A DNA stretch of 64,000 nucleotides, from contig CAIQHF010000043.1 of NCBI GenBank assembly GCA_903871605.1, positions 34,721 through 98,720 on the forward strand, in the 5' to 3' direction. Source of the DNA: an uncultured Sphingomonadaceae bacterium (GTDB lineage: Bacteria; Pseudomonadota; Alphaproteobacteria; Sphingomonadales; Sphingomonadaceae). Position 1 is the first letter of the stretch. Every line of letters begins with the position of its first letter. This document shows positions 7,799 through 30,075 of this stretch, in pieces. The notes below the pieces were generated by a model. The model was given only the letters and a program-made list of their open reading frames with translations. It was not told the DNA's origin and ran no database searches. The position numbers were made by a program, and so were the translations under genes.

Positions 7799-7813
7799 AA
7801 TCGTCGGACGATT
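7799..7813. promoter_or_regulatory. Perfect palindrome AATCGTC-G-GACGATT, candidate GntR/FadR-type operator
   Basis: 7-bp arms with a 1-nt centre in the divergent intergenic region. Confidence 0.45.
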
Positions 7814-7966: not shown

Positions 7967-8881
7967 ATGATCAGATCTTGGGCAGGCCGGGGCATGGCGC
8001 TTGGTGTCCTCGCGCTGCAGACGGTCCCGGCGGGCGCGCAGCCCGCCACACCGCCCCTGCCCGCCACACCGACCTTGCCCGCCGCGCTGACCACCGACCC
8101 GCCGCGCGACCCGCTCCATCCTGCACGGCTGGCCCAGATCCGTTTCACCACGCACGGACTCGCCGTCCCCGCGCGTTTGTTCGTCGCGGCCGGAGCGGGC
8201 ACGCATCCGACCATCCTGCTTCTGCACGGCTTTCCCGGGACCGAGCTCAACCTCGATCTCGCGCGCGTCCTTCAGCGCGACGGCTGGAACGTGCTGGCGA
8301 TACATTATCGCGGCGTCTGGGGCGCGCCGGGGCAGTTCAGCCTGACGCATGTCGTCGAGGACGCGCAGTCCGCGCTTGCCTGGCTGCGTTCGCCCGCGGC
8401 AGCGCCTTATGGCATCGACGCCGGACGGATCGTCCTGCTCGGCCACAGCATGGGGGGCTTCGCGACCGTCATGCTGGGTGCCGACAAGGGGGTTGCCGGC
8501 TACGTCCTGATCTCGGCGGCCGACATGGTGGCCGATACGTTGAAGGCGGCGGCGGAACCCAGCGAACGGGCGAGCTACGCGGACGATGCGAGCTACACCA
8601 ACGCCAGCTTCGACAGCCTCGCCGCCGACGTGCGCGCGCATGCGCGGGCGTGGGACTGGACGACGCGCGCCGCGCTGATGGCGGGGCGTCCGGTACTGGT
8701 TCTGACCTCGGACGATGGCCTGGCGCCAAGCGACGATGCGGCCGCGGCGGCGGTGGCGCAGGCCGGCGGCCCGGCGCCGACGGTCGAGCATATGACCACC
8801 GACCACAGCTATAACGATCATCGTATCGCGCTCGCCGCGACGATCGTCCGCTGGCTCGACGCCCACTTTCCGAAACGCTGA
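7967..8881 (+). CDS. Exported alpha/beta hydrolase (Ser-type)
   Basis: Signal-peptide-like N-terminus (LGVLALQTVPAGAQ), HGFPG oxyanion motif, GHSMGG elbow, late His (DHSYNDH). Confidence 0.85.
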   Translation: MIRSWAGRGMALGVLALQTVPAGAQPATPPLPATPTLPAALTTDPPRDPLHPARLAQIRFTTHGLAVPARLFVAAGAGTHPTILLLHGFPGTELNLDLARVLQRDGWNVLAIHYRGVWGAPGQFSLTHVVEDAQSALAWLRSPAAAPYGIDAGRIVLLGHSMGGFATVMLGADKGVAGYVLISAADMVADTLKAAAEPSERASYADDASYTNASFDSLAADVRAHARAWDWTTRAALMAGRPVLVLTSDDGLAPSDDAAAAAVAQAGGPAPTVEHMTTDHSYNDHRIALAATIVRWLDAHFPKR

Positions 8882-8889
8882 CAGCCGGT

Positions 8890-10509
8890 TCAGCGCGCGA
8901 TATCGGCCGCCAGCAGGTCGGCCGCCCGCTCGCCGATCATCATCGCGGTCGCGTTGCTATTGGCGCTGACCAGGCGGGGCATGATCGAGGTGTCCGCGAT
9001 CCGCAGACCGCTCAGGCCGATCACGCGCAGGCGCGGATCGACCACCGCGTCCGTGCCGCTGCCGATGCGGCACGTGCCCGAGGCGTGATAGAAGGGTTCG
9101 ATCGTGGCGGCGACATAGGAATCGAGCGATCGCTGGTCGGTGTCGTCGGCCGGCGGCTGGACCGAGCGACCGAAGACGCCCTCGAACGTCGCGCCCGAAA
9201 GCCATGTCTGGACCTTCGCGACAGCGGCCGTCATCCACCGCCGGTCGAGCGGATGCGACAGCATCGGGTACGAGATGACCGGCTGGTCGGCGGGATCGGC
9301 CGACCGGATCGACACCTGCCCGCGCGCATTGGGCCAGCAGAGATCAACGGTGAACATGGCCTGCCCGGTCTTCGCCAGCCGCAGCTTCCCGTCGCGCGTC
9401 TCGTAGCCGAACGGAAAGATGCTGAGCTTCGCCTTGGAGAGCGGATCGGCATCGTCGGCGAGGAAAAAGGCGGAGGCCTGGCTCACGAGATCGGTCAGCA
9501 GCCCCCGCCCGCGCAGATATCGCAGCGCGGCGCCGATCACCGCCGGGCTTCTGAGCTGCTGGTTGATCGACGGCATCGATGTGCCGCGCACCAGCCGCAC
9601 CCCGCAATGCTCCTGCAGATTGCATCCGACACCGGGCCGGTCCAGCCGCGTGCGCACGCCGATCGACGCAAGCGTCGCGGCGGGGCCGATTCCCGACCGC
9701 AGCAGGATGGCCGGCGTTGCGACCGCCCCCGCCGACAGGACGATCTCGTCGCCCGCCATGATGGTGCGCACCCCGCGACGATCGCGCACCACCACGCCGC
9801 TGGCGCGCCGTCCATCGAAGGTCAGGCGATCGCACAGCGTTTCGCAGACAATGTCCAGATTGGCGCGTCGCCCGTCCATTCCGGGATAGTCGATCGCCGG
9901 AGACGAGCGGCGACCCCGACGCTGATTGACCTGCCCGTAGGCCACGCTTCCGGGCGCGTGATCGCGATTATAGTCGTCGGTCAGGCGGAACCCCGATCGT
10001 TCGAGCCCCGCGACGAAACCGCGCGTGATCGGGTGCGCATCGGGCGCAAGCGAGCGGATGGCGAGCGGCCCGCCGTCGCCGCGGATCGAGGCGTCGCCGA
10101 ACCCGCAGCGTTCGAGGCGGCGATAGAAGGGGAGCACGCTGTCATAGTCCCAGCCGCTCGCGCCCATTGCCGACCACCAATCGAAATCCGCGCGCTCCCC
10201 CCAGATATAGAACATGGTGTTGATCGAGCCGCCGCCGCCGAGCAGCTTGCCCGCAGGCCATTCGGGCGCGCGCCCGCCGACGCTCGCATCGGGCTCGACG
10301 GTCCGCTTCCAGTCGTAGCGGGGATTGCCGACAAGCCATCTGACGCCCGCGGGATGCCGCACGATCGCGCGGCGCGCGTCCCCGCCCGCCTCCACGAGCA
10401 GGATCCGCCGCGACGGATCGTCGCTCAGCCGGCTGGCCAGCACGCATCCCGCCGCGCCGCCGCCGACCACGATCACGTCGTAGTGCGCGGCGGCCGCCGC
10501 ATGTCGCAT
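8890..10509 (-). CDS. GMC oxidoreductase (choline dehydrogenase-like)
   Basis: GGGAAG FAD motif, GKLLGGGGSIN, GVGCNLQEH, HASGTCRIG, ANSNATAMMIGE. Confidence 0.92.
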   Translation of the reverse strand: MRHAAAAAHYDVIVVGGGAAGCVLASRLSDDPSRRILLVEAGGDARRAIVRHPAGVRWLVGNPRYDWKRTVEPDASVGGRAPEWPAGKLLGGGGSINTMFYIWGERADFDWWSAMGASGWDYDSVLPFYRRLERCGFGDASIRGDGGPLAIRSLAPDAHPITRGFVAGLERSGFRLTDDYNRDHAPGSVAYGQVNQRRGRRSSPAIDYPGMDGRRANLDIVCETLCDRLTFDGRRASGVVVRDRRGVRTIMAGDEIVLSAGAVATPAILLRSGIGPAATLASIGVRTRLDRPGVGCNLQEHCGVRLVRGTSMPSINQQLRSPAVIGAALRYLRGRGLLTDLVSQASAFFLADDADPLSKAKLSIFPFGYETRDGKLRLAKTGQAMFTVDLCWPNARGQVSIRSADPADQPVISYPMLSHPLDRRWMTAAVAKVQTWLSGATFEGVFGRSVQPPADDTDQRSLDSYVAATIEPFYHASGTCRIGSGTDAVVDPRLRVIGLSGLRIADTSIMPRLVSANSNATAMMIGERAADLLAADIAR

Positions 10510-10521
10510 GCCGGCTTCGCC

Positions 10522-11868
10522 CTAGAGACGCCGCGCGACGCGCGCGCCGAAATAGAAGCAGGTCGCGGCGGGAAGCAGCAGCAGCGATGCCGTGATCGCC
10601 AGCGAATAGGGCAAGGCGAGCGGATTGTGGAACACCGCCTCGGTGAAGAAGGCGACGAGCCACGGCCCGCCGCCTGCGCCAACCAGCGTGGACAACATCA
10701 TCGTCACCGCGACGAACTGCGCGCGCATGATGTTGGGCACGAAAGCGGGGATCGCCGCCATCGCCGGCCCGATCGCGATCACGACGCAGAAGGTGATCCC
10801 GCCCAGCGCGATCGCCGCCACCGTCGCCGATCCGCTAAGCGCGAGCACGAGACCGAGCGGGAAGGTGACGGCGCTCGCGACCAGCGGGATCAGGAAATTC
10901 GCGTCGCGCCGGCCATTATCGCGCAGATGGTCGCAGAGCTTGCCGCCCATGATGCTCGCCAGCGCGCCGATGATCATGAAATAGAGGCCATAGACGAGGC
11001 CGATCTGGGTCGCGGTCCACCCGAATTTGCGCACGAACAGCGATACCGCCCAGTTGGTCAGGCCATATTGATAGGTGACCAGGAGGATGATGCCGCCCAG
11101 CAGCGTGCCGAGATAGCCACGATTCGCGATCGTATAGCGTGCGAAGGCGATCATGCTCGTGCCGTTGCCCGCGCCGTCCTCTTGTTCGCCGGGGCGGCGG
11201 GGCGGCTCGCGCACCGCGAACAGCGCCGCCAGCAGTGCGACCCCCGGCAAGCCCATGATCCCGAACGACAGCTGCCAGCCGTGAACCGCGCCGAACAGCG
11301 GCAGCACGACATCGCCGTTCATCGGCAGCAGCTTGAGCAGCAGCCCGCCGAACACGAGCGACGCGCCGGTGCCGAGAAAGCTGGCACCGGTCACCGTGCC
11401 GAGAGCGCCGGCAAGCTTGGCCTTGGGGAAATAGTCGCTGAGCAGCGAGAAGGCCGCCGGCAGCAGCGACGCATCGGCCAGACCGGTCAGCAGACGCGCG
11501 GCGAACAGTGCGGAATAGCTTTTCGCCATCATCGAGGCGACCGTCGCGACGACCCATAGCGCCGTACCGATGGTGATGATCCGGTCGCGCCGCCAACGGT
11601 CCGCCAGCCACCCGATCGGGATCGCCACCAGCGCGTAGAAGAGCGCGAAGGCCAGACCCTGAAGCAGGCTGACGTCGATATCCTGGATATGGAAGTCGCG
11701 CGACAGCGGCTCGACCGTGAGGCTGAGGATCTGGCGCTCCATGTTGCTGACCAGCTGGAGGCCGCTCAGGATCGTCACCACCAGCCAGGCATATCCGGCC
11801 GACCCGAACGCATAGCCCTTGACGGCGATCGGATCGGCGCTGGGCGGGACAAGGGTCTGGACGGTCAT
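10522..11868 (-). CDS. MFS transporter (spinster-like)
   Basis: About 12 hydrophobic segments, GWLADRWRRDR motif A; ATG 11868 with GAAGGA RBS. Confidence 0.9.
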   Translation of the reverse strand: MTVQTLVPPSADPIAVKGYAFGSAGYAWLVVTILSGLQLVSNMERQILSLTVEPLSRDFHIQDIDVSLLQGLAFALFYALVAIPIGWLADRWRRDRIITIGTALWVVATVASMMAKSYSALFAARLLTGLADASLLPAAFSLLSDYFPKAKLAGALGTVTGASFLGTGASLVFGGLLLKLLPMNGDVVLPLFGAVHGWQLSFGIMGLPGVALLAALFAVREPPRRPGEQEDGAGNGTSMIAFARYTIANRGYLGTLLGGIILLVTYQYGLTNWAVSLFVRKFGWTATQIGLVYGLYFMIIGALASIMGGKLCDHLRDNGRRDANFLIPLVASAVTFPLGLVLALSGSATVAAIALGGITFCVVIAIGPAMAAIPAFVPNIMRAQFVAVTMMLSTLVGAGGGPWLVAFFTEAVFHNPLALPYSLAITASLLLLPAATCFYFGARVARRL

Positions 11869-12102
11869 CAAATATCCTTCAGCTCGGCGGGGATCGCGCG
11901 CGGAGAGCGATCGGGAACGGGCCGGCCACGCCGCGGACGCGGCGTTGGTCATGCCGTCCATGACAGATCATGCTGCGATGCGGAACGCCCGTTCCAAAGC
12001 GATCGTCCCGCTTTTCTCCACCAGTTGGATAAGTGGGACATGTGGCGGGGCGGCGACCGCGCCGAACCCTAAGCTGCCCGCCGGCTGCTTAGGAGACGAT
12101 CG

Positions 12103-13677
12103 ATGCCCGCGCACGTCCACAGCGCCTTCGTCTATCTCGGTGACCGACGGGTATATTATCGCTGGGCGGGGCAAGGGCCGGCGATCGTCTTGCTCCACCA
12201 GTCTCCGCGCACATCGGCCGAGCATGCCGATTGGATGCGAACGCTTGGCGATCGCTACCTCGTCATCGCCCCCGACACGCCGGGATACGGGTTTTCCGAC
12301 GCCTTGCCCGAACAGTTCGGCGCGACCTGGATCGATCATTATGTCGATGCCCTCGCCGATCTCCTCGACGCATTGGGGCTGGACCGACCGACGCTCTACG
12401 GCAGCCATAGCGGCGCGATCATCGCCGTCCGCTTCGCAGGCCGCTATCCGAACAGGATCAGCGCGCTCGTCGCCAACGGGATCATGCTGAGCGACGTCGC
12501 CGAGCGCGCCGATCTCGCCGCCTATTATCTCGACCCGATCCGCCCACGGTGGGATGGGGCACATCTCGCCGAGATCTGGAGCAGGCTCCGGGACCAGCTG
12601 GTCTTCTATCCCTGGTACCGGCGCACGCCCGCCGCGCGGATCGACTGGGCGCAACCTCTCGCCGAAACCGACGCGTCGGCGCTCGACATGCTGCGCGCCG
12701 GGGATCGGTATCGCGGCGCATATGGCGCGGTGCTTGGCTATGACATCCGGCCCGATCTGGAGCGGCTCGCCTGCGATACGCTGCTGATCGTCGCGAAGCC
12801 GGACATATTGGCACGCTATGTCGATCACTATCCCACCATGCCCGGCCGGGTGACGGTCGAGCTGGCCGACGATTTCGCGTCCGTCCCGGCGGCGATCGAC
12901 CGCTTCGTCGCGCGTCGGCCCGGCCCGGTCATCCATTTCGCACCCCCGGCGTCGGCGCGGCGGCGGGGTCCATCGTCGGCGGTCGTGCCGCTCGCAGAGG
13001 GCGACATTCACATCCGCGCGATCGGGCCGCCACAGGCGATGTCGGCGATGGCCCTGCACGACATCGGGGCCTCGGCGGCGAGCCTCGACGCCTTGATCGG
13101 CGCGGCCGGGACGGACGTTCGGCTGGTCGCGCCCGATCTGCCAGGACACGGCGCCAGCGACGCCCGACCGGACCGGACGGCGGCCGGCGCGGCGTCGGCG
13201 CTGCTCGCGCTGGCAGACGCGCTCGGCTGGCAGCGCTTCCGGATCGTCGCCATCGGCGCGTCGGCGGCGATCGTCGGGGCCATGCTCGTCGCGGCGCCCG
13301 ATCGCATCATCCGCGCCGCGCTGATCGAGCCCCCGGAGCCGGGCGCGAATGCCGCATTGCCCGATCTTTCGCCGGACAGCGCCGGCTCGCACCTGACGCG
13401 CGCCTGGATGTATCTGCGCGACCGCGCGCTTTTCTCACCCTGGGATCGGCGATCCGCCGTGACCGCGACCGGCGGCGAGACGCCGCAGGCGCAGCAGCTT
13501 CACGAGCAACTCGTCGACCTGCTGACCGCGCGCGCGGTCATGCCCCCGCTGCTCGCCGACGCGCTGTCGCGGCCGCGACCGGACGCACCCGTCCTTGGCC
13601 GTCGCGGATCGGGGCATGAGCTGCCCGACCAGCCGATCCACTGGTGGCGCGCGATCGCGCCGCATCTCGGGCTGTGA
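12103..13677 (+). CDS. Tandem two-domain alpha/beta-hydrolase-fold protein
   Basis: Domain 1: LHQSP, PDTPGYG, GSHSG. Domain 2: LHDIG, PDLPGHG, degenerate elbow. Repeated W..LRD...F.PW. Confidence 0.85.
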   Translation: MPAHVHSAFVYLGDRRVYYRWAGQGPAIVLLHQSPRTSAEHADWMRTLGDRYLVIAPDTPGYGFSDALPEQFGATWIDHYVDALADLLDALGLDRPTLYGSHSGAIIAVRFAGRYPNRISALVANGIMLSDVAERADLAAYYLDPIRPRWDGAHLAEIWSRLRDQLVFYPWYRRTPAARIDWAQPLAETDASALDMLRAGDRYRGAYGAVLGYDIRPDLERLACDTLLIVAKPDILARYVDHYPTMPGRVTVELADDFASVPAAIDRFVARRPGPVIHFAPPASARRRGPSSAVVPLAEGDIHIRAIGPPQAMSAMALHDIGASAASLDALIGAAGTDVRLVAPDLPGHGASDARPDRTAAGAASALLALADALGWQRFRIVAIGASAAIVGAMLVAAPDRIIRAALIEPPEPGANAALPDLSPDSAGSHLTRAWMYLRDRALFSPWDRRSAVTATGGETPQAQQLHEQLVDLLTARAVMPPLLADALSRPRPDAPVLGRRGSGHELPDQPIHWWRAIAPHLGL

Positions 13678-13774
13678 CCGTTCGGCGCGCCCCCCGGGAC
13701 GCAGGTGCGGCATCGCCGACATTGCGTGACCGCAGGCTGCGACGCGGCTCTCGCCCCCGCCGCTATCCGCACTG

Positions 13775-13798
13775 CGGACATTGCACCTGGAATGTCTG
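13775..13798. promoter_or_regulatory. Imperfect inverted repeat CGGACATT-N8-AATGTCTG, candidate operator
   Basis: 7/8-matching arms about 130 bp upstream of the 13925 operon. Confidence 0.3.
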
Positions 13799-13924
13799 GC
13801 GCGACTCCCGCCACCGGCCCGACAGTCCGCCCACTGTGCAGCGCCAGACGAGCCGCACCAGACCTGCCAAACTGCCTGGAGGATGCGGACGCCGCGCCTC
13901 CCCACCATCGAGGAGAATATCGGT

Positions 13925-14638
13925 ATGTCTCTCACTCGGACGATTGGTTCCTATGTCATGGGACCGAGCGACGACCGCTCCAAATGGGTGAGCTGGGAAA
14001 ATTTCATCGTCACCACCAATCCGGACGGGTCGCATACCGCGCAGACCATGACGCGCTTCCCGGGCAATTCGATGATTCGTCACGTCACGCAGACGGTCGA
14101 CCGGGAATTCACGCCGATGGACGGCATCACCCGTTTCTTCGTCGACGAGGTCTATCAGGGCATATTGATCCGCCGCGTGGTCGGTGACACGATCACCTCG
14201 ATGGTGATGCTCCCCGACGGCAGCCCAATCGACGAGAAGACGCTCGCGATGGGTGGATCGGACATCGTGTTCGGCTACCACCCGACCTCGGTCGAGGGAT
14301 GGAAGTTCATCAAGGCGGACCGTGCCAACCCCGATCCTCAGATGGTGCGCATCCTGTCGAGCTCGCCGACCTGGAACGGCGGCGTGATCGGCCACGGCGC
14401 CGAGGTCAGCCTCAAGGTCCAGTATCTCGGCCCCGAGCAGATCACTGTGCCGGCCGGCACGTTCACCGGCCACCACTATCTCTGGCATACCGGCAATATC
14501 GATGGCGACATCGAGGTTTGGACGATCGGGCAGGACGAGATCTGCGCCCGTTGCATCGGCCACGCCAAGGGCGTCACCTACGAACTGGCGACATATGAGA
14601 GCACCGAGTTCGGCACCGTGCGCGAGTTCGACTTCTGA
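13925..14638 (+). CDS. Hypothetical protein (237 aa), paralogue of 28886-29563
   Basis: AGGAG RBS; GPEQITVPAGTF..HY motif; coupled to the nitrilase gene (TGATG). Confidence 0.8.
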   Translation: MSLTRTIGSYVMGPSDDRSKWVSWENFIVTTNPDGSHTAQTMTRFPGNSMIRHVTQTVDREFTPMDGITRFFVDEVYQGILIRRVVGDTITSMVMLPDGSPIDEKTLAMGGSDIVFGYHPTSVEGWKFIKADRANPDPQMVRILSSSPTWNGGVIGHGAEVSLKVQYLGPEQITVPAGTFTGHHYLWHTGNIDGDIEVWTIGQDEICARCIGHAKGVTYELATYESTEFGTVREFDF

Positions 14639-16374
14639 TGGCCGGGCCGCTCCCCACCACGCCAAGCGAGGGAGCGGCCCGCACGATCCGGGTCGCCACC
14701 GCGCAATTCGAGACCGGCAAGGACCGCGACCGCGTCCTCTCGCAGATGCTGGGCCTGATCGACGAAGGCGCCGCCGGCGGCGCGCAGCTCGTCCACTTCC
14801 AGGAATGCTGCAACTACCCGACCTCCTATGACGACCGCGAACATGCCTGGCGCGAGGCGATCACGATCCCGGGGCCGATGATCGACGCGATCTCGGCCCG
14901 CGCCCGGCAACATGGCGTCCACGTCTCGTTCAACGCCGCGGTCCGCGGCGCATTTCCCGATGCCTATATGGTCAATCATCTGATCGGCCCCGACGGCGCC
15001 TATATCGGTGGCAATGCGAAGCAGATCCTGATGTGGATCGAGCGCGACGCCTTCCGCCCCGCGGACCAGGAGAATCGCGTGTTCGACACGGCGATCGGCC
15101 GCATCGGGCTGATTTCGTGCATGGACGGACTGATCCCGGAGACCTCGCGGACGCTGGCCTGCCAGGGCGCCGACATCATCGTCAATTCGCTCTGCTCCAA
15201 CGGGCGCGACGAGGCACATTTCCACATTCCTGCGCGGTCTGCCGAAAACGGCGTCTACATGATCTATGCCAACCGCATCGGCGACATGGTCAAGGGCGAG
15301 GATCTCGAACGGCTGATGGCGGCCAGCGGGATGGACCGCGAGACGGTGAGCGGCGCGGGCGAAAGCGGCATCACCGGCCCCGCCGGCGAGGTGATCGCGC
15401 GCGCGGGCCAGAAGGATTTCGGTCTCACCTTCGCGGACATCGATCTCAGCCGCGTCCAGCGCACGCAGCGCCTCGCCGGCCGCCGGCCCGAATGCTACGG
15501 ACTGATCACCGAGGACAATAGCGCGCTCGCGGCGTTGACCGTGGGACGCCCGGCGGCGGGCACGGTCAGGATCACCACCGTCGTCCCCGACACCGGCGCC
15601 GGCCCCGCCACGGTCTCCAAGGCGGTGGCGATGATCGAGGCGGCCGAACCCGGTCTCGCGGTGCTTCCCGAGCTGTTCGCATGGGCGCCCGATACGCTGC
15701 AGGCCGGCGAAGCGCTGCAGGGCGAGATCGATCATGCGATCGCGCAATTGGCCGAGGCGGCGGCGACGCGCGGCACCTACATCGTCGCGGGCATCCCCGA
15801 GATCGATGACGGCCGCCTGATCAACCGCGCCATCTTGATCGGCCCCGAGGGCGTGCGCGGCAGCTATCGGCAGGTTCACGCCGATCCGGCGCTGGGCTGG
15901 GGCCCGGGCGGCGACGACTTCCCTGTGTTCGACCTGCCCTTCGGTCGGCTTGCGATGCTGCTCGGCGAGGATCTCCGCTATCCCGAGGCGGGGCGGATGG
16001 TCGCGCGCCAGGGCGTCGATCTCGTCGCCTGCCCCGCGACGTGGCGCAACGATTGGCAGTATCGCTTGATGCTGCCCGAGCGATCGGCGGAAAACCACAT
16101 CACCATCGCGGCGGTCGGCCGCGCGGATTCGCCGGTGCCGCAGCCCGCGACGATCGTCACCACCGCACCGGTCTATCGCTTCCCGGATACGATGGAGGTG
16201 AACAATCCCGATCGCTTCCAGGCCGATGCGCCCGCAGGCAGCCTGACCGTGGCGATCGATCTAGCGCCCAACCGCGACAAGCGGCTGATGGGCTCGACCG
16301 ACCTCATCATGGACACCCAGCCGGTGCTTTATGGCCGGCTGGTCGCTTCGGACCCGAAGATGGAGATGGTATGA
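14638..16374 (+). CDS. Two-domain nitrilase/carbon-nitrogen hydrolase
   Basis: Domain 1 has the E-K-C triad (FQE, AKQ, SCMD); domain 2 shows LPE, YRQVH, LGEDLRYPE. Confidence 0.88.
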   Translation: MAGPLPTTPSEGAARTIRVATAQFETGKDRDRVLSQMLGLIDEGAAGGAQLVHFQECCNYPTSYDDREHAWREAITIPGPMIDAISARARQHGVHVSFNAAVRGAFPDAYMVNHLIGPDGAYIGGNAKQILMWIERDAFRPADQENRVFDTAIGRIGLISCMDGLIPETSRTLACQGADIIVNSLCSNGRDEAHFHIPARSAENGVYMIYANRIGDMVKGEDLERLMAASGMDRETVSGAGESGITGPAGEVIARAGQKDFGLTFADIDLSRVQRTQRLAGRRPECYGLITEDNSALAALTVGRPAAGTVRITTVVPDTGAGPATVSKAVAMIEAAEPGLAVLPELFAWAPDTLQAGEALQGEIDHAIAQLAEAAATRGTYIVAGIPEIDDGRLINRAILIGPEGVRGSYRQVHADPALGWGPGGDDFPVFDLPFGRLAMLLGEDLRYPEAGRMVARQGVDLVACPATWRNDWQYRLMLPERSAENHITIAAVGRADSPVPQPATIVTTAPVYRFPDTMEVNNPDRFQADAPAGSLTVAIDLAPNRDKRLMGSTDLIMDTQPVLYGRLVASDPKMEMV

Positions 16375-23789: not shown

Positions 23790-24650
23790 TCAGCCGACCT
23801 CGTTCCATTTGCGGTCGAATGCCCAGACATCCTCGAAGCCGATCAGCCCGCAGAAGGTCTTGAAGTCGAACATCGCCATGTCGGCGGGCTCGCCGTCGCC
23901 GTGATCGCGCAGCTTGATCAGCGCGGTCTCGATCGCCGAGGCGGCGATCAGCGAGGTGAGCGAGGGATAGATGGCGAAGGCGTAGCCGATGTCCGCCAGC
24001 ACGTCGCCCTTGAGCACCGGGGTCAGGCCACCATTGGCCATGTTCGCCATCACGGGCACATCGAAGGCGGCGCACGCCGTGCGCATCTCCGCCACGCTGG
24101 TGAGCGCCTCCGGGAAGAGCACGTCCGCGCCCGCCTTGGCATAGGCCTCCAGCCGCCGCATCGTGCCGTCGAGCCCCTCCGATTGGCGCGCATCGGTACG
24201 CGCGATCACCAGCATGTCCTCGCGCGCCTCGACCGCGACCTTGATCTTGGCGACCATCTGCTCGATCGGGACGACGCGCTTATACGGGGTGTGCCCGCAT
24301 TTCTTGGGGAATTCCTGATCCTCCAGCTGGATCGCGGAAACGCCGGCCGCCTCATAGCCCTTCACCGTATGGTGGACGTTGAGCAGACCGCCATAGCCGG
24401 TGTCCGCGTCGGCGATCAGCGCCGCCTTGCTGGTGCGCTTGATCGTCGCCATGCGATCGACCATCTCGCTATAGCCGACGATGCCGGCATCGGGCAGCCC
24501 ATAGGCGGAGGCGGTCAGCCAATAGCCGGTGCCATAGACGATCTCGAAGCCGACGCGATCCGCGATCACCGCCGCGATCATGTCGTGCACGCCGGGTACG
24601 ACGAAAAATTTTTGGGTGGCGAGTTTGTCGCGCAGGCGGGTGTCAGTCAT
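23790..24650 (-). CDS. Isocitrate lyase/PEP mutase family C-C lyase (2,3-dimethylmalate lyase/PrpB-like)
   Basis: DADTGYG, LEDQEFPKKCGH, IARTDA. Confidence 0.9.
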   Translation of the reverse strand: MTDTRLRDKLATQKFFVVPGVHDMIAAVIADRVGFEIVYGTGYWLTASAYGLPDAGIVGYSEMVDRMATIKRTSKAALIADADTGYGGLLNVHHTVKGYEAAGVSAIQLEDQEFPKKCGHTPYKRVVPIEQMVAKIKVAVEAREDMLVIARTDARQSEGLDGTMRRLEAYAKAGADVLFPEALTSVAEMRTACAAFDVPVMANMANGGLTPVLKGDVLADIGYAFAIYPSLTSLIAASAIETALIKLRDHGDGEPADMAMFDFKTFCGLIGFEDVWAFDRKWNEVG

Positions 24651-25248
24651 GATGTCCTTCTGTCGTCCAGAGCCATGGCGCAGCCTTTCGCTGCACGGTT
24701 TCGAATCGCGCTATGTCGTCCGCGTGGAGTGCGCGTATCCGCGCGATCTCGTCCCAGCCGTTGAGCAGCGACTGACGGCGATCCTCGCTGATCGCGAACC
24801 GGAACGGCCCGGTGTCGGGCAGCGCGAGCGTGCCGGCGGCGAGATCGAGATCGAAGATCGCGCCCGCGCGCGCTGCCTCGTGCAGCCGAGCGATGGTCGG
24901 AGCCGGCAGAATGATCGGCAACATGCCGTTCTTGAAGCAGTTGGAATGGAATATCTCGCCGAAGCTCGGTGCGACGATCACCCGGAAGCCGAGGTCCGCC
25001 AATGCCCAGGGCGCCTGTTCGCGGCTCGAGCCGCACCCGAAATTGGCGCCCGCGACGAGGAAGGGCGCAGCCGGCATGTCGTCGGTGATGGGGAAGCCGG
25101 GATCGCTGCGTCGATCGTGGAACGCGTAACGCCCTAGCCCCCGCTTCTCGGTGATCAGCAGATAGCGCGCCGGGTAGATGATGTCCGTGTCGACGTCCGC
25201 CTCGGGCATCGAGATAGCGCGACCGCGCAGCGTGTCGAGCGCGCGCAT
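24643..25248 (-). CDS. leuD: 3-isopropylmalate dehydratase small subunit-like protein
   Basis: DVDTDIIYPAR, GANFGCGSSREQAPWAL, SFGEIFHSNCFKNG; physiological substrate may differ. Confidence 0.9.
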   Translation of the reverse strand: MRALDTLRGRAISMPEADVDTDIIYPARYLLITEKRGLGRYAFHDRRSDPGFPITDDMPAAPFLVAGANFGCGSSREQAPWALADLGFRVIVAPSFGEIFHSNCFKNGMLPIILPAPTIARLHEAARAGAIFDLDLAAGTLALPDTGPFRFAISEDRRQSLLNGWDEIARIRALHADDIARFETVQRKAAPWLWTTEGHHD

Positions 25249-26660
25249 CAGTGCCACGCCCGGATATCGGTGATGCGGCCGGTCAGCGCCGCCGCCGCAG
25301 CCATGGCGGGGCTCATCAGATGCGTGCGCGCGCCCACGCCCTGACGCCCCTCGAAATTGCGGTTGGAGGTCGATGCGCACCGCGCGCCCGGCGGCAAGCG
25401 GTCGTCGTTCATCGCCACGCACAGCGAGCAGCCGGCGTCGCGCCAGAGAAAGCCCGCGCGCGTGAATAAGCGGTCGAGTCCCTCGGCCTCGGCCTGCCGG
25501 CGCACCGCATCGGATCCCGGGACGACGAGCGCGCGCACGCCATCCGCGACATGGCGATCGCCGACCATCGCGGCGGCCGCGCGCAGATCCTCGATCCGCC
25601 CGTTGGTGCAGCTGCCGATGAAGGCATGGTCGATCGCGAGCCCGGCGAGCGGGCGACCGGATGTGATGTCCATATAGTCCAGCGCATGCGCGAGTCGCTC
25701 ACGCGCCGCCGCCGGGCTCGCGGTGGCCGGATCGGGTATGGCCTCGTCGACGCCGAGCACCTGATCGGGACTGGTGCCAAAGGTAACCTGCGGCGCGAGC
25801 GATCCGAGGTCGATCTCGATCTCGCGATCGAATTGCGCCGCAGGGTCGCTCGCGAGCATCCGCCACGACGCCAGCGCCTGCTCCCACGCCCTGCCCGACG
25901 CCACGCGCGGCCGGCCGGCGAGATAGGCGAATGTCGTCTCGTCGGGCGCGATCAGCCCGGTTCGCGATCCCGCCTCGATCGCCATGTTGCAGAGCGTCAT
26001 GCGCGCCTCCATCGACAGCGCGCGGACCGCGGCGCCGGCATATTCGATCGCATAGCCGGACGCCCCGCCCGCGCCGATCTGCCCGATCATCGCGAGCACC
26101 ATATCCTTTGCGGTGATGTGGGGGCCCGGGGTGCCGGTGAAGCGGACGCGCATGCGCTTCGCCTTCTCCTGCCACAGCACCTGCGTCGCCATCACCGTGC
26201 CGCACTCGCTGGCACCGATCCCGAAGGCGAGCGCACCGAAGGCGCCGTGCGTCGCGGTGTGGCTGTCGCCGCAGACCAGCGTGATGCCCGGGATGGTGAA
26301 GCCCTGTTCGGGACCGATGACGTGGACGATACCCTGACCGGGGCCGTCGAGCGGCAGATATTCGATCCCGAAGGCGGCGCAGTTCGCCTCGAGCAGCGCC
26401 ACCTGCGCGCGCGCCTGCGGGTCGCCGATCGGGCTGCCGCGGTCGTGCGTCGGCACCGCATGATCGGCGACGGCCAATTGGGTCGCGGGGCGGTGCACGC
26501 CGATCCCCGCCTCGCGCAGCGCCTCGAACGATTGCGGCGTGCTCACCTCGTGGAGCAGGTGCCGGTCCACATACAGCAGCGCGCGCGCCTCGCCCTGCCC
26601 GGCCACGACGTGCGCGTCCCACAGCTTGTCGTACAATGTGCGTGCGATCTGCTCGGCCAT
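25248..26660 (-). CDS. leuC: 3-isopropylmalate dehydratase large subunit-like protein ([4Fe-4S])
   Basis: [45 protein letters not shown]; GGAGGA RBS; physiological substrate may differ. Confidence 0.92.
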
Positions 26661-26834
26661 CCGGTCCTCCGGCGATTCCATGGGTGCGATCGGTCGGCGG
26701 GTCGACTGGCGGGACGGGTTTCTCCGCCCAGCGATCAGACTGCGGGAGGCGCGTTACTTTTCGCGCCGCGCCTGTTCCGATGTCGCCCGTTCTGCTGCTT
26801 TGCGTGTCGACCAGCCTCGTGACCGGAGACGGCC

Positions 26835-26957
26835 ATGGACCGCCTGCCACCCGATTATGCCAGCGTCGCGCTCCCGCTGCTGTGCACCGCCAGTTTCGTG
26901 TCGCTGGCGATCAGCCTTGCGATGATCTGGGCGCTGGGCGGATGGCCGATGATCTGA
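26835..26957 (+). CDS. Putative 40-aa single-pass membrane peptide
   Basis: GGAG RBS then MDRLPPDYASVALPLLCTASFVSLAISLAMIWALGGWPMI*; below the ORF-track cutoff. Confidence 0.45.
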   Translation: MDRLPPDYASVALPLLCTASFVSLAISLAMIWALGGWPMI

Positions 26958-27000: not shown

Positions 27001-27918
27001 TCATCCCGTCAGCTGGCCGGGAATGTGGCTCTCGTGGTTCTGGAGATACCAATCGGCGATCTCCTCGCGTGTCGCCCACCAGACCCCCGGCAGCGACTTG
27101 GCGTGCTCAATGAACTCCCTGAGCGCGCGGATCCGATGAGCGCGGCCCGAGACGTGCGGGTGCAGCCCGACGTTCATGATCCGGCCGGTGGTCGCGCCCT
27201 CCTCGTAGAGCACGTCGAGTTCCTCGATCAGCGCCTGGGCGAATTGGTCGGTGGTGAAGTTCTTGCGCGTGATGAAGGTGAAGTCGTTGATCTCGTTCGA
27301 ATAGGGCACGGAGACGATCGGCCCGTTGGGGGTGCGCAGCAGATAGGGCTGATCGTCGTTCATGATGTCGCAGTAGAAGGTGCACCCCTGTTCGGCGAGA
27401 ATGTCCGCCGTCTGCAACGTCCCGCGCAGCGAGGAGGAGAGCCAGCCCTTCGACTTGCGGCCGGTGAATTTCTCGAACTGATCGAGCGTGCGCAGCACGA
27501 TCTCGCGCTCCTTGGCCGGATCGCCCGCGAAGTTGGTGAGCAGCTCGCCCTGCTCCCAATTGTGCGTGAGCAGCTCCCAGCCGCGCTCGAGCACCGCGTC
27601 GGTCATCGCCTTGCGACGCTCGAAGGTGACCGCGTTGGTGGTGCAGCTCGCCTTGACGCCGAGCTTGTCGAACAGCTCGAACAGCCGCCAGATACCGACC
27701 CGCTGGCCATATTCGCGCCAGCTATAATTGGGGAAGTCGGGCGTGTTGCCGGGCAGTATGTCGGGCAGGATCGACGGGCCGCCGGCATAATAAGGCTTGT
27801 CGGTGTCCTTGGTGAGGTCCCACGTCTCGAGGTTGAAGGTCAGGATCAGAGCGACTCGCGCTCCGTTCGGCCATTTGAGCGGCTGGCGAGCGGGAAGCGG
27901 GACGTAATCATAATCCAT
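27001..27918 (-). CDS. Polysaccharide deacetylase-family (PuuE allantoinase-like) hydrolase
   Basis: KWPNGARVAL, REYGQRVGIWR, YSNEIND, LHPHVSGRAHR. Confidence 0.88.
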   Translation of the reverse strand: MDYDYVPLPARQPLKWPNGARVALILTFNLETWDLTKDTDKPYYAGGPSILPDILPGNTPDFPNYSWREYGQRVGIWRLFELFDKLGVKASCTTNAVTFERRKAMTDAVLERGWELLTHNWEQGELLTNFAGDPAKEREIVLRTLDQFEKFTGRKSKGWLSSSLRGTLQTADILAEQGCTFYCDIMNDDQPYLLRTPNGPIVSVPYSNEINDFTFITRKNFTTDQFAQALIEELDVLYEEGATTGRIMNVGLHPHVSGRAHRIRALREFIEHAKSLPGVWWATREEIADWYLQNHESHIPGQLTG

Positions 27919-27939
27919 CGCAGATTCTCCGTGAAAAGC

Positions 27940-28698
27940 TCAGAACTCGGCGAGAAGGCGACCGAAGCCGTCCATCTGGTCCGCAATGCCCATGGTGCGC
28001 AGCGCATGCCAGTAGGTGGCGGTATTGATCGCGATCACCGGCTTTTCCAACCAGAACTCCGCCATCGCCGCAACCTCTGCGAACGCCAGGTTGGTGCCGG
28101 CCTGGATGATCGCATCGACGCCTTCGGAGACCGCGATCGCGGTCCGCTTGAGCTTTTGCTTGTCCTCATGCGCGATCATCATCGGCGAAGGCGATTTGAG
28201 CCCGACGATGTGCACCACCTCATAGCCCTGATCCTCGAAGAACTTCTTCACATTGGCGTCGCCGACCGGCGCATAGGGGGTCAGGATGCCGATCTTCCGG
28301 ATCGGCGCGCGGCCCGTCTCATACGCCTTGATCGCCGCGTCGACCGCGGTCGACCCCATGATCACCGGCACGCCTCCAGTGCGCTCGAGCATTTTCTTGT
28401 GCAGCCGGTCGGCGCCCTCGGCACCGTCCCAGAACGTCTCTGCCGACATGCCCATGATCACGCAGCCCGGATCCATCGACATCGAGATGTCGACCGCGTC
28501 GAAGGTCGAATCGCGGATCGTCTGCAGCATCACCATGAAGCTGTCATCGTCGGTCACCCGTGTGTCGGGAATCGCGATGCGCGAGAAATGGTTGGTCACG
28601 CCGCGCGGCCGCATCGCCGCATATTCGGGCTCGACGCTGGTGTTCGTTGACGGGGCAACCACCGCAAACTTCATTCGATAGCCCAGGGAATCGGTCAC
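27940..28698 (-). CDS. Asp/Glu racemase-superfamily protein (maleate isomerase/arylmalonate decarboxylase-like)
   Basis: VVAPSTNTSVEPE, GILTPY, QAGTNL, PVIAIN; GTG start 28698. Confidence 0.82.
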   Translation of the reverse strand: MTDSLGYRMKFAVVAPSTNTSVEPEYAAMRPRGVTNHFSRIAIPDTRVTDDDSFMVMLQTIRDSTFDAVDISMSMDPGCVIMGMSAETFWDGAEGADRLHKKMLERTGGVPVIMGSTAVDAAIKAYETGRAPIRKIGILTPYAPVGDANVKKFFEDQGYEVVHIVGLKSPSPMMIAHEDKQKLKRTAIAVSEGVDAIIQAGTNLAFAEVAAMAEFWLEKPVIAINTATYWHALRTMGIADQMDGFGRLLAEF

Positions 28699-28885: not shown

Positions 28886-29563
28886 ATGAGACGACATGCC
28901 GGCACCATCGCCTATCGCGGCGAACAGGGGATTTGCGGCCGCGAGGTCTTCGCGATCGACGTCCGGGCCGACGGCCGCACGATCCGCTCCTATTGCGAGA
29001 TGGACGAGGGCGATCTGACCCGCGATGCGAGCTGGACGCTGGCCCCCGACGGATCGCCCGTCGAGGGCCATGTCCGCGTCACCAACGGCGGAGCGCTGGT
29101 CGGCAGCAGCTGGTTCCGCTGCACCGAGACCGAGACCGAATGCGAGAGCCTGATCGCGCACATGGGTCGGGTCTCGCAGCGCCTGCCGGGGCGCCGCAGC
29201 TATCTCGGCCTGCACCCCCTCGTCGGCGACGGCATGATCGCGCTGGCGCGTGGCCGCGAGGCGCCGGGCGAGCAGCGGGTGATCGACAGCGTCACCTGCT
29301 CCTACGACATCAAGGGCGAGACAAGCCTCGTCGCGCTGCCGATCGCGATCGGCGTCACCTATGTCGGCGAAACCGAGATCGAGGTGGCCGCAGGCCGCTT
29401 CGCCGCCGATCACTATCTTCTCCATTGGCAGCCCCATTGGCCTCCCGCCGAGCTCCATGTGCACGGCGAAGATGCCATCTTCCTACGGCTGCAATGGGAG
29501 ATATCGAGACGCACCTATGAACTGACGTCGCTGCACAGCGGCCCGACCAGCCTCACGGCCTGA
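28886..29563 (+). CDS. Hypothetical protein (225 aa), paralogue of 13925-14638
   Basis: GGGAG RBS; GETEIEVAAGRF..HY motif; C-terminal TYEL. Confidence 0.78.
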   Translation: MRRHAGTIAYRGEQGICGREVFAIDVRADGRTIRSYCEMDEGDLTRDASWTLAPDGSPVEGHVRVTNGGALVGSSWFRCTETETECESLIAHMGRVSQRLPGRRSYLGLHPLVGDGMIALARGREAPGEQRVIDSVTCSYDIKGETSLVALPIAIGVTYVGETEIEVAAGRFAADHYLLHWQPHWPPAELHVHGEDAIFLRLQWEISRRTYELTSLHSGPTSLTA

Positions 29564-29577: not shown

Positions 29578-30075
29578 ATGCCCCTGCCCCATGTCTCTTC
29601 GTTGATCCGCGCCTCGATCTTCGTCCGCGATATCGAGCGTGCCGCGGCCTTCTATGCGCTGCTCGGCTTCACCGACGTCTATTATGAGGGAAAGCTCGAC
29701 AACCCGTCGGCCTCCTCGGTGATCGGACTGACGCTCCACCGCCCCTATCGCGTCAAGATCGTCAAGCAGCCCGGACCCAATCACGGCATGATCGGGCTGT
29801 TCGAGCTCGATCCCGAGGCCGCGCCCGAGGCGCTGCCCGCGCCGGCCGGCCCTGCCCGTCGTGGCGAGGTCGCGCTGGTCTTCTACGTCCGCTCGATGAC
29901 CGACACGCTCGCTGCACTCCGCGCGGCCGGGGCGACCTGGTCGCCCGACCCCGAATTGTTCACCATGGCGCATCGTTCGCAATTCGAGGTCTGTCTGCGC
30001 GATTGCGACGGCGTGTTCATCAACCTCGTCGAGACCGATCCGGCCGAGCAGCACCGAACCGAACGCGAAGGCTGA
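29578..30075 (+). CDS. VOC/glyoxalase-family protein
   Basis: IFVRDIERAAAFY..LLG, LRDCDGVFINLVE. Confidence 0.8.
   Translation: MPLPHVSSLIRASIFVRDIERAAAFYALLGFTDVYYEGKLDNPSASSVIGLTLHRPYRVKIVKQPGPNHGMIGLFELDPEAAPEALPAPAGPARRGEVALVFYVRSMTDTLAALRAAGATWSPDPELFTMAHRSQFEVCLRDCDGVFINLVETDPAEQHRTEREG

What the first reader, a model, noticed from the sequence alone, without database searches (positions are those of the whole stretch)
27001..28698. Racemase-fold protein lacking both catalytic cysteines, paired with a PuuE-like hydrolase
Seen: MGMSAETF and QAGTNL occupy the positions where maleate isomerases and Asp/Glu/hydantoin racemases have Cys...Cys; arylmalonate decarboxylase keeps the second Cys. 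The pairing echoes allantoin racemase plus PuuE allantoinase. Inference: a cyclic amide/ureide-processing pair with a different mechanism.
Basis: partly seen in the sequence, partly recalled or inferred. Interest (0 to 1): 0.6.

Follow-up and report, generated by a model that had tools for sequence, protein, structure and literature searches.

The report
Thiol-less racemase-fold enzyme with ring-opening hydrolase
Two co-transcribed, strongly conserved genes encode a maleate-isomerase-like protein that has lost both catalytic cysteines and a PuuE-like ring-opening hydrolase; with a flavin monooxygenase they form an uncharacterised breakdown module, probably for a hydroxylated nitrogen ring compound.

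Summary
Window 27940-28698(-) encodes a 252-aa maleate-isomerase/arylmalonate-decarboxylase-fold protein. In a profile alignment the two catalytic Cys positions are Met84 and Gly201. Its only cysteine (Cys79, in GCVIM) is not conserved and starts a strand, and no column of the family has a conserved Cys. Window 27001-27918(-), 21 nt downstream with its own RBS, encodes a PuuE-like NodB hydrolase that keeps PuuE's Glu and His residues but has Gln in place of the triad Trp.

The pair is adjacent in 76 of 80 related genome loci and is under strong purifying selection. It is patchily distributed. It almost always sits beside a PnpA/HspB-like flavin monooxygenase. Recurrent neighbours are a NicF/carbamoylsarcosine-amidase-like isochorismatase (also found fused to the thiol-less protein), PrpB/dimethylmalate-lyase-like lyases, LeuCD-like hydratases and an aldehyde dehydrogenase. 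No ring-cleavage dioxygenase is conserved nearby.

It is not allantoin racemase plus allantoinase, and not an ordinary maleate isomerase. My best reading is hydrolytic opening of a hydroxylated cyclic amide or imide, deamidation, and a thiol-independent proton-transfer step by the racemase-fold protein. The substrate and the chemistry are inferred, not shown. I found no paper on the pair. The scan's first readers had flagged the same pair in several other genomes.

The parts
27940..28698 (-). Thiol-less maleate-isomerase/AMDase-fold protein, 252 aa, GTG start. Met84 and Gly201 occupy the two catalytic Cys positions. Asn19, Ser85, Tyr142, Gln199, Thr202, Asn203 and Asn225 are conserved.
27919..27939 (-). 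21-nt spacer between the two genes, with the ribosome-binding site GGAGA at 27930-27926. The pair is probably co-transcribed.
27001..27918 (-). PuuE-like NodB-fold hydrolase, 305 aa. Glu31, His119, Asn211, His253 and His255 are invariant in 70 orthologues. Gln123 replaces the Trp of PuuE's Glu-His-Trp triad, and Trp114 replaces the first His of the CE4 His-His motif.
   Evidence: PMC11424739
25248..26681 (-). LeuC-like aconitase-family hydratase large subunit, a second copy in the genome (56% identical to the copy on contig C51). Probably a downstream step. A 320-bp gap separates it from the pair.
   Evidence: linked to the pair in L059, L087 and L085
24643..25248 (-). LeuD-like small subunit. 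Its start overlaps the LeuC stop codon.
23790..24650 (-). PrpB/ICL-superfamily lyase (methylisocitrate- or dimethylmalate-lyase-like). It overlaps the end of leuD. Orthologues or paralogues lie near the pair in many loci.
28886..29563 (+). Unnamed about 225-aa protein family, transcribed divergently from the pair. In Novosphingobium and Croceicoccus loci it sits in the same operon as the pair.
29578..30075 (+). Small VOC (glyoxalase/dioxygenase-superfamily) protein. It recurs next to the pair in 8 loci.

Best explanation
**The module.** The two genes form a co-transcribed enzyme pair inside an accessory catabolic module. The module's invariant third member is a PnpA/HspB-like para-hydroxylating flavin monooxygenase, which in this genome lies on contig C27.

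**The NodB protein.** It is an active, metal-independent hydrolase of the PuuE/cyclic-imidase type. I infer that it opens the C-N bond of a cyclic amide or imide made from the monooxygenase product. This would replace a ring-cleavage dioxygenase.

**Downstream steps (inferred).** A NicF/carbamoylsarcosine-amidase-like isochorismatase removes the amide nitrogen. The resulting unsaturated or enolic di- or tricarboxylate goes to a LeuCD-type hydratase and/or a PrpB/dimethylmalate-lyase-type lyase.

**The racemase-fold protein.** It keeps the carboxylate-binding and oxyanion-hole residues of maleate isomerase and AMDase but has no thiol, so it cannot use covalent Cys addition or Cys protonation. 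I infer that it catalyses a thiol-independent proton-transfer isomerisation, that is, a keto-enol or enamine-imine tautomerisation that also resets ring-tautomer or cis-trans geometry. Its substrate would be a hydroxylated, carboxylated intermediate next to the amidase step.

**Shown versus inferred.** Shown: fold, loss of both Cys, conserved pocket residues, gene linkage, purifying selection, and retained PuuE catalytic residues. Inferred: the substrate class, the order of steps and the chemistry.
For: - **Thiols and fold.** Cys76 and Cys194 align with Met84 and Gly201, and the family has no conserved Cys. The model has pLDDT 95.9 and TM 0.85 to maleate isomerase. Asn19 (63/64), Ser85, Tyr142, Gln199, Thr202, Asn203 and Asn225 are conserved.
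- **Selection.** dN/dS is 0.07-0.17 for the racemase-fold gene and 0.04-0.11 for the PuuE-like gene.
- **PuuE-like catalytic residues.** Glu31, His119 and His253 are invariant, and Gln123 replaces the triad Trp. PuuE residues and the metal-independent imidase BpIH are described in PMC11424739.
- **Linkage.** The pair is adjacent in 76 of 80 loci. The monooxygenase is present in 61 of 80 loci, and its nearest solved relatives are PnpA 6ain and HspB 7da9. In a 45-48%-identity subfamily the monooxygenase gene directly precedes the racemase-fold gene.
- **Fusions.** Isochorismatase is fused to the thiol-less domain in four cluster representatives, one of them a eukaryote transcript.
- **Neighbour identities.** The isochorismatase neighbour is nearest to N-carbamoylsarcosine amidase and to 3ot4/3uao. 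From memory, 3uao is NicF maleamate amidase. The lyase is nearest to methylisocitrate lyase, petal death protein, dimethylmalate lyase and oxaloacetate acetylhydrolase.
- **No dioxygenase.** No ring-cleavage dioxygenase is conserved near the pair.
- **Precedents.** The fungal hxn pathway combines a NicC-like and a second flavin monooxygenase, the NodB cyclic imidase HxnM and an amidase (PMC9304392). Hydrolytic opening of trihydroxypyridine to ketoglutaramate is proposed in Gram-positives (PMC6214936).
- **Same gene set across genomes.** The set that is contiguous in Croceicoccus (L008) and Caulobacter (L059) is split between contig C27 and the window here.
Against: - No substrate is known, and no assay or genetics exists for any member.
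- Many neighbours fit lignin-type phenolics as well as heterocycles. These are the VAO-family flavoprotein, a phenylacetaldehyde-dehydrogenase-like ALDH, a relative of decarboxylative vanillate 1-hydroxylase, and a VOC protein. The window also lies in an aromatic-acid catabolic island.
- No obvious acid/base residue replaces the cysteines. Glu87 is present in only 34 of 64 sequences and His37 in 51 of 64.
- I could not inspect model coordinates, so the statements about the pocket rest on alignment alone.
- The PuuE-like gene is missing beside some members of the more distant subfamily, so the two proteins need not act on consecutive intermediates.
- LeuCD is near the pair in only a minority of loci.
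Confidence: 0.4

Rival explanations
1. The racemase-fold protein is a decarboxylase of the AMDase type that needs no Cys. Decarboxylation would yield an aromatic phenolate or a conjugated enol that is protonated on oxygen. An example is loss of CO2 from an ipso-hydroxylated dienone carboxylate or a formyl- or amino-methylene malonate-type product.
For: - The Pfam Amdase model matches above its cut-off.
- The oxyanion-hole positions Ser85, Tyr142 and Gly201-Thr202 are kept.
- It is tightly linked to ipso- or para-hydroxylating monooxygenases.
- An aldehyde dehydrogenase is a frequent neighbour.
Against: - Relatives of the second monooxygenase decarboxylate on their own: NicC and vanillate 1-hydroxylase.
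- The NCBIfam AMDase model scores 46 bits against a cut-off of 225.
- Fusion with a NicF-like amidase fits a maleamate-like logic better.
Confidence: 0.15
2. The racemase-fold protein is a cofactor-free hydratase. Water takes the place of the lost Cys nucleophile and adds to a substituted maleate. The resulting malate derivative is cleaved by the PrpB-like lyase.
For: - In many loci the operon reads racemase-fold gene, PuuE-like gene, PrpB-like lyase, isochorismatase, with no LeuCD nearby.
- The maleate-binding Asn19 and Tyr142 are kept.
- Cys to Gly at position 201 would make room for a water molecule. This is inference only.
Against: - No precedent exists in this fold.
- The window and several other loci carry a LeuCD-type hydratase as well.
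- No conserved general base is evident.
Confidence: 0.1
3. The module degrades a nitrogen-free phenolic, for example a methoxy- or alkyl-hydroquinone from lignin units. The PuuE-like protein would hydrolyse a lactone or a (vinylogous) methyl ester, and the racemase-fold protein would isomerise a maleyl-type ring-fission product, possibly with a free thiol such as glutathione.
For: - The monooxygenase relatives include PnpA, decarboxylative vanillate 1-hydroxylase and 4-hydroxybenzoate 1-hydroxylase.
- Neighbours include a VAO-family flavoprotein, ALDH and VOC proteins. In betaproteobacterial loci a 320-aa VOC dioxygenase and an FAH-family hydrolase lie nearby.
- The window is surrounded by aromatic-acid genes.
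- CE4 enzymes are esterases by ancestry.
Against: - The PuuE subgroup's known substrates are all C-N rings.
- The amidase-type isochorismatase is a recurrent neighbour and fusion partner.
- A ring-cleavage dioxygenase is absent from most loci.
Confidence: 0.17
4. The racemase-fold protein is no longer a catalyst. It would be a ligand-binding or scaffolding partner of the hydrolase or the monooxygenase.
For: - Both catalytic residues are lost and no clear replacement is visible.
- The adjacent hydrolase is extremely conserved, up to 97% identity between genera.
Against: - The polar residues that line the ancestral active site are the most conserved part of the protein.
- dN/dS is about 0.1.
- It occurs without the PuuE-like gene in a sister subfamily and fused to an amidase.
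- No fusion of the two partners was found.
Confidence: 0.08
5. The pair is a diverged allantoin racemase plus PuuE allantoinase (HpxA/HpxB-like), or an ordinary maleate isomerase of a nicotinate pathway.
For: - The two folds are paired as in hpxA-hpxB. That pairing is recalled from memory.
- PuuE is the best named hit.
- Public databases call the first protein maleate isomerase or arylmalonate decarboxylase.
Against: - PuuE scores 148 bits against a cut-off of 424.6.
- The triad Trp is Gln.
- Both Cys are absent.
- TM to allantoin racemases is only 0.57-0.62.
- No purine or nic genes recur near the pair.
Confidence: 0.03

Closest known systems
Maleate cis-trans isomerase (NicE/Iso/MaiA; PDB 2xec, 4fq7) with the NicF maleamate amidase of the nicotinate/nicotine maleamate pathway
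   Same: - Same fold: TM 0.85, profile E = 3e-36.
- PSxN Asn, TPY Tyr and FH..R motifs are kept.
- It is found with, and sometimes fused to, a NicF/CSHase-like isochorismatase, downstream of flavin monooxygenases related to HspB and NicC.
   Different: - Both catalytic cysteines are replaced (Met84, Gly201).
- Asn163 is not kept; a Pro aligns there.
- No NicX dioxygenase or NicD is conserved nearby.
- A PuuE-like hydrolase and PrpB-like lyase are added.
Arylmalonate decarboxylase (Bordetella AMDase; PDB 3ixl, 3dg9)
   Same: - The Pfam Amdase family matches.
- A small, non-thiol residue stands at the first Cys site, as with AMDase Gly74.
- The oxyanion-hole positions are kept.
   Different: - The essential Cys188 is Gly.
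- The NCBIfam AMDase model is far below its cut-off (46 vs 225 bits).
PuuE allantoinase and the cyclic imide hydrolases BpIH/CIH and fungal HxnM
   Same: - NodB fold with a full-length match to 1z7a, 3cl6 and 3s6o (E = 1e-31 to 1e-35).
- The Glu and His of the metal-free triad and the GLH His are kept.
- A ring-opening C-N hydrolase role after flavin monooxygenases is the precedent set by HxnM.
   Different: - The triad Trp is Gln123.
- The score is a third of the PuuE cut-off.
- It is obligatorily paired with a thiol-less racemase-fold protein.
- The substrate is unknown.
OPAG_01669 of Rhodococcus opacus (PDB 4ix1), structure solved, function unknown
   Same: Best Foldseek hit. In the phmmer alignment it also lacks Cys at the second site (MSGAAV).
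   Different: Only about 20% identical, and it scores lower against the family profile than maleate isomerase does (73 vs 128 bits). It is a separate lineage.
HpoH/PKC cyclase-family trihydroxypyridine ring-opening enzyme plus omega-amidase (Rhodococcus PY11, Paenarthrobacter pAO1)
   Same: The proposed logic is the same: monooxygenase product, then hydrolytic ring opening, then amide, then amidase.
   Different: The protein families are unrelated, and no racemase-fold partner is involved.

Membership tests
Maleate cis-trans isomerase (EC 5.2.1.1) | Asp/Glu-racemase-type two-lobe fold of the maleate-isomerase/AMDase branch | tested here: met
   AlphaFold2 pLDDT 95.9. Foldseek TM 0.85 to 2xec and 4fq7. 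Profile E = 3e-36.
Maleate cis-trans isomerase (EC 5.2.1.1) | Nucleophilic Cys76 and partner Cys194 (Nocardia numbering) | tested here: not met
   Met84 and Gly201 stand at these positions. Gly201 is present in 63 of 64 relatives, and the family has no conserved Cys anywhere.
Maleate cis-trans isomerase (EC 5.2.1.1) | Carboxylate-binding Asn14, Tyr133 and Asn163 | tested here: inconclusive
   Asn19 and Tyr142 are kept. The position aligned to Asn163 is Pro and is variable. The reference residues are recalled from the literature.
Arylmalonate decarboxylase (EC 4.1.1.76) | Catalytic Cys188, with Gly at position 74 | tested here: not met
   Gly201 aligns with the second-site Cys of maleate isomerase and of ST0656. 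A PDB title confirms Gly74/Cys188 in AMDase. NCBIfam arylmal_decarb scores 46 bits against a cut-off of 225.
Hydantoin/allantoin racemase (HpxA, AllR) | Two-Cys acid/base pair and the hydantoin-racemase branch of the fold | tested here: not met
   No Cys pair is present. TM is 0.57-0.62 to 5lg5, 3qvk and 2eq5, against 0.85 to maleate isomerase.
PuuE allantoinase | Equivalog-level sequence match (TIGR03212) | tested here: not met
   148 bits against a cut-off of 424.6.
PuuE allantoinase | Metal-free Glu-His-Trp triad plus the proposed catalytic His of GLH | tested here: inconclusive
   Glu31, His119 and His253 are invariant. The Trp is replaced by an invariant Gln123 (PMC11424739).
PuuE allantoinase | Purine-catabolic gene context | tested here: not met
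   No urate or allantoate genes appear among the conserved neighbours of 80 loci.
Cyclic imide hydrolase (CIH/BpIH/HxnM, EC 3.5.2.16) | NodB fold of the PuuE/HpPgdA subgroup, metal-independent, hydrolysing cyclic imides to half-amides | not testable with these tools
   It is a homologue of 3s6o (91% identical to BpIH according to PMC11424739) at E = 1e-31. Activity cannot be tested here.
Ectoine utilisation protein EutA | Equivalog match TIGR02990 and the eut/doe gene context | tested here: not met
   52 bits against a cut-off of 318. No doe or eut genes are nearby.

The most novel reading that the evidence does not exclude
The thiol-less racemase-fold protein is a new kind of catalyst in this fold. 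It would be a cofactor- and thiol-independent tautomerase/isomerase (or an aromatising decarboxylase or hydratase). Together with a PuuE-type imidase it would open the ring of a flavin-monooxygenase product purely by hydrolysis. That would give bacteria, and by the fusions some algae and fungi, a dioxygenase-free route from hydroxylated pyridone- or imide-type rings to central di- and tricarboxylates.
Probability: 0.3. Interest if true: 0.75.

Novelty: new variant of a known kind. Interest (0 to 1): 0.6.

Why it matters
**Mis-annotation.** Public databases name this protein 'maleate isomerase' or 'arylmalonate decarboxylase'. It lacks the residues that define both activities, so the labels are almost certainly wrong for a family with more than 100 clusters at 50% identity (118 representatives at E <= 1e-30).

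**Unassigned chemistry.** The family is under strong selection and is tied to a specific monooxygenase and hydrolase across Alpha-, Beta- and Gammaproteobacteria. It is also fused to an amidase in eukaryote transcripts. It therefore marks a real, unassigned step of (hetero)aromatic catabolism.

**What solving it would give.**
- The range of chemistry known for the Asp/Glu-racemase fold would widen.
- A structure of unknown function (4ix1-type proteins) might be explained.
- It could reveal a hydrolytic alternative to dioxygenase ring cleavage.
- Metal-free imidases and stereoselective AMDase-fold enzymes are of interest as biocatalysts.

Tried and rejected
1. **Syringate/CHMOD route.** My first idea was that the pair is the CHMOD methylesterase plus cis-trans isomerase of syringate catabolism, sitting next to the LigAB-type gene. 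I rejected it. DesC and DesD are an alpha/beta hydrolase and a GST (bioRxiv 10.1101/160747; PMC12314914). The gallate dioxygenase, MFS and TonB genes belong to a separate gallate locus.
2. **GCVIM cysteine as catalyst.** The single-sequence alignment that placed the GCVIM Cys on the catalytic Cys was overruled by the profile alignment, the conservation counts and the model.
3. **sm119 as a cytochrome c.** The small 117-122-aa protein beside the VAO-type flavoprotein has no CxxCH motif in any of 35 sequences.
4. **Hidden ring-cleavage dioxygenase or molybdenum hydroxylase.** A Pfam census of 115 otherwise unclassified neighbour ORFs found none that recurs.
5. **Fusions of the two partners.** None were found.
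6. **Literature.** Searches for the gene pair returned nothing relevant.
8. **Regulatory signals.** Promoter, terminator and inverted-repeat scans around the pair gave nothing above chance.
Full report
**1. What is at the coordinates**

Two minus-strand ORFs fill 27001-28698.

- **Upstream gene.** It starts at GTG 28698, which gives 252 aa. This is the length of almost all homologues, and a GAGAGG lies upstream. The 285-aa ORF from ATG 28797 is only the longest open frame.
- **Junction.** The upstream gene's TGA is at 27942-27940. GGAGA follows at 27930-27926, and the second gene's ATG is at 27918. The two genes are almost certainly co-transcribed.
- **Family hits.** The first protein matches Pfam Amdase (PF17645, E = 4e-12, above cut-off). 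It matches NCBIfam EutA and AMDase only weakly, at 52 and 46 bits against cut-offs of 318 and 225. The second protein matches PuuE allantoinase at 148 bits against a cut-off of 424.6. It aligns over residues 15-295 with 1z7a, 3cl6 (PuuE) and 3s6o at E = 1e-31 to 1e-35.

**2. The cysteine claim**

- **First alignment, overruled.** A single-sequence alignment placed the Cys of GCVIM opposite the first catalytic Cys of Pseudomonas putida maleate isomerase. That would have refuted the finding.
- **Profile alignment.** I built a 64-sequence alignment from close and distant relatives and searched the PDB with its profile.
  - Nocardia Cys76 falls on Met84 (G83-M84-S85, inside MGMSAETF).
  - Cys194 falls on Gly201 (Q199-A-G201-T-N).
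  - The Cys of the AMDase-like ST0656 also falls on Gly201.
- **Reference residues.** PDB titles confirm them: 'Gly74Cys-Cys188Ser mutant of arylmalonate decarboxylase' and 'C194S mutant with a covalently bound succinylcysteine intermediate'.
- **Conservation.** Gly201 is present in 63 of 64 sequences. Position 84 is Met, Val, Leu or Ile. Position 79 (the GCVIM Cys) is His 23, Cys 7, Ala 7 and Tyr 6. The window protein has no other Cys, and no column of the family has Cys in half or more of the sequences.
- **Model.** The AlphaFold2 model (pLDDT 95.9) places Cys79 as the first residue of strand 79-82. The catalytic position follows the strand's C-terminal end, just before helix 86-89. From fold topology I infer that Cys79 lies far from the pocket. 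I could not measure the distance.
- **Fold neighbours.** Foldseek gives TM 0.85 to maleate isomerases and 0.81-0.82 to AMDase (3dg9, 3ixl). It also hits 4ix1, a structure of unknown function that likewise lacks the second Cys. TM to allantoin racemases is only 0.57-0.62.

**3. The protein is not decaying**

- **Conserved polar residues.** The best-conserved ones line the ancestral active site: Asn19 (63/64), Ser85 (55), Tyr142 (51), Gln199 (58), Thr202 (53), Asn203 (52) and Asn225 (60).
- **Selection on the racemase-fold gene.** dN/dS against orthologues is 0.07-0.17.
- **PuuE-like partner.** Its dN/dS is 0.04-0.11, and it reaches 97% identity between genera.
- **Partner's catalytic residues.** In 70 orthologues Glu31, His119, Asn211, His253 and His255 are invariant. 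Gln123 stands where PuuE and the imidase BpIH have the Trp of their metal-free Glu-His-Trp triad (PMC11424739).

The hydrolase therefore looks catalytically competent and metal-independent, but it is not an orthologue of PuuE.

**4. Genomic context**

A scan of species-representative genomes returned 80 loci at 60-93% identity. They come from sphingomonads, Caulobacter, Hyphomonas/Ponticaulis, Acetobacteraceae, Polaromonas and other Burkholderiales, and a gammaproteobacterial MAG.

- **Pairing.** The PuuE-like gene follows directly in 76 of the 80 loci.
- **Third member.** Clustering all neighbour ORFs shows an FAD monooxygenase, usually divergent from the pair, in 61 loci. Its nearest solved relatives are p-nitrophenol monooxygenase PnpA (6ain) and 6-hydroxy-3-succinoylpyridine monooxygenase HspB (7da9). 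Both hydroxylate para to a ring OH and expel the substituent.
- **Recurrent accessories.**
  - DUF1330.
  - An IclR regulator.
  - A PrpB-like lyase, nearest to methylisocitrate lyase, petal death protein, dimethylmalate lyase and oxaloacetate acetylhydrolase.
  - An isochorismatase-family hydrolase, nearest to N-carbamoylsarcosine amidase and to 3ot4/3uao. I recall 3uao as NicF maleamate amidase.
  - A second monooxygenase, nearest to tropone monooxygenase, decarboxylative vanillate 1-hydroxylase and NicC.
  - An aldehyde dehydrogenase.
  - A conserved trio: a methyltransferase-like protein, a helical protein of about 119 aa, and a VAO-family flavoprotein.
  - LeuCD-like hydratases.
- **No dioxygenase.** No ring-cleavage dioxygenase or molybdenum hydroxylase recurs.
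- **Caulobacter sp. BP25 (L059).** One operon carries the monooxygenase, DUF1330, LeuCD, a PrpB-like lyase (82% identical to the window's), a VOC protein and an ALDH. It diverges from the pair. This is the same gene set as in the window.
- **This genome.** The monooxygenase (58% identical), IclR, ALDH, the methyltransferase trio and the isochorismatase lie on contig C27. The window carries the pair, LeuCD (a second copy, 56% identical to the copy on contig C51), the lyase, an unnamed family and the VOC protein.
- **Neighbouring gallate locus.** The gallate dioxygenase, MFS and TonB receptor genes upstream belong to a separate gallate locus.

**5. Wider family**

- **Distribution.** In a sample of 301 genomes of the same order, 12 have a match at E <= 1e-60. 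The gene is accessory and patchy.
- **Sister subfamily.** In a subfamily at 45-48% identity, the monooxygenase gene directly precedes the thiol-less gene. Isochorismatase, LeuC and PrpB-like genes lie nearby, but the PuuE-like gene is there only sometimes.
- **Paralogues.** Some loci carry two thiol-less paralogues flanking the monooxygenase.
- **Fusions.** Four cluster representatives join an isochorismatase domain to a thiol-less domain with the same GMSxETF and QxGTNL motifs. One is a marine eukaryote transcript. A fungal gene model joins a fragment of the thiol-less protein to an FAD monooxygenase.
- **No partner fusion.** I found no fusion of the two partners.

**6. Interpretation**

- **Shown.** A selected, thiol-less maleate-isomerase/AMDase-fold protein is genetically coupled to three partners: a PuuE-type hydrolase with intact catalytic residues, a para-hydroxylating flavin monooxygenase and a NicF/CSHase-like amidase. 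Aconitase-family hydratases and ICL-superfamily lyases lie downstream.
- **Inferred.**
  - The monooxygenase product, or a tautomer of it, is a cyclic amide or imide.
  - The NodB enzyme opens it, as PuuE, BpIH/CIH and the fungal HxnM do (PMC11424739, PMC9304392).
  - The amidase removes the nitrogen.
  - The thiol-less protein performs a proton-transfer isomerisation (tautomerisation, or cis-trans resetting of an enol or enamine) that needs an oxyanion hole but no thiol.
- **Closest worked examples.**
  - The maleamate pathway, where NicF is followed by NicE.
  - The Aspergillus hxn pathway, with two monooxygenases, then the imidase HxnM, then an amidase.
  - Hydrolytic opening of trihydroxypyridine to ketoglutaramate in Gram-positives by an unrelated cyclase-family enzyme (PMC6214936).
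  - The dimethylmaleate hydratase and dimethylmalate lyase pair of nicotinate fermentation (from memory).
- **Candidate substrates I cannot rank.** They include hydroxypyridones and substituted maleimides.
- **Rivals that remain open.** The alternatives are a Cys-independent decarboxylase, a hydratase, a nitrogen-free phenolic/lactone route, and a non-catalytic partner.
- **Readings excluded.** A diverged allantoin system and an ordinary maleate isomerase are effectively excluded by the membership tests.

**7. Novelty**

The folds are known, and PuuE-like imidases acting after flavin monooxygenases have a fungal precedent. Three things are undescribed in the searched literature:

- the family-wide loss of both thiols;
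- the fixed three-gene module;
- its links to amidase fusions and LeuCD/PrpB enzymes.

Database names for the family ('maleate isomerase', 'arylmalonate decarboxylase') are not supported. First readers of this scan flagged the same pair in several other genomes. No follow-up was shown for those notes.

Noticed in passing
window 26833-26955 (+): A 40-codon ORF encoding a hydrophobic peptide, with a GGAGA before its ATG. It lies on the opposite strand in the 320-bp gap between the PuuE-like gene and leuC. If real, it separates the pair from the LeuCD-lyase unit.
   Followed up: no
window 28886-29563 (+); also L008, L017, L020, L021, L025: An unnamed family of about 225 aa with no Pfam, NCBIfam or PDB match. 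It is divergent from the pair here. In Novosphingobium and Croceicoccus loci it sits in the same operon, after the PuuE-like gene, the second monooxygenase and the ALDH. A 33%-identical paralogue lies beside the monooxygenase on contig C27.
   Followed up: partly
L083 (own genome, contig C27) about 5600-15400; also 33 of the 80 related loci: A conserved trio: a methyltransferase-like protein with a roughly 200-aa N-terminal extension, a helical protein of about 119 aa with no family and no CxxCH motif, and a distant VAO/PCMH-family flavoprotein. It usually sits next to the monooxygenase and an aldehyde dehydrogenase.
   Followed up: partly
proteins P0235, P0274, P0276, P0279 (and P0226): Isochorismatase-family domain fused to a thiol-less maleate-isomerase-like domain through a conserved linker of about 100 aa. 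One of them is a marine eukaryote transcript.
   Followed up: partly
L060, L061, L063, L064: Two thiol-less paralogues (about 39% and 69% identical to the window protein) flank the same monooxygenase gene.
   Followed up: partly
window 25248-26681 (-) and own genome C51:3204-4616: The genome has two LeuC copies that are 56% identical. The window copy passes the LeuC equivalog cut-off, yet it is coupled to a PrpB-like lyase and not to leuB or leuA.
   Followed up: partly
L003, L007, L010, L036: A second PuuE-like paralogue and a further polysaccharide-deacetylase-like gene lie in a block with an isochorismatase, an HMGL-like lyase and a family III CoA-transferase, upstream of the IclR gene and the core module.
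   Followed up: no
window 14638-16374 (+): A 578-aa protein with an N-terminal nitrilase/amidase-superfamily domain (residues about 17-289) and an unassigned C-terminal half, in the plus-strand operon upstream. It may be another amide-hydrolysing step in the same island.
   Followed up: no
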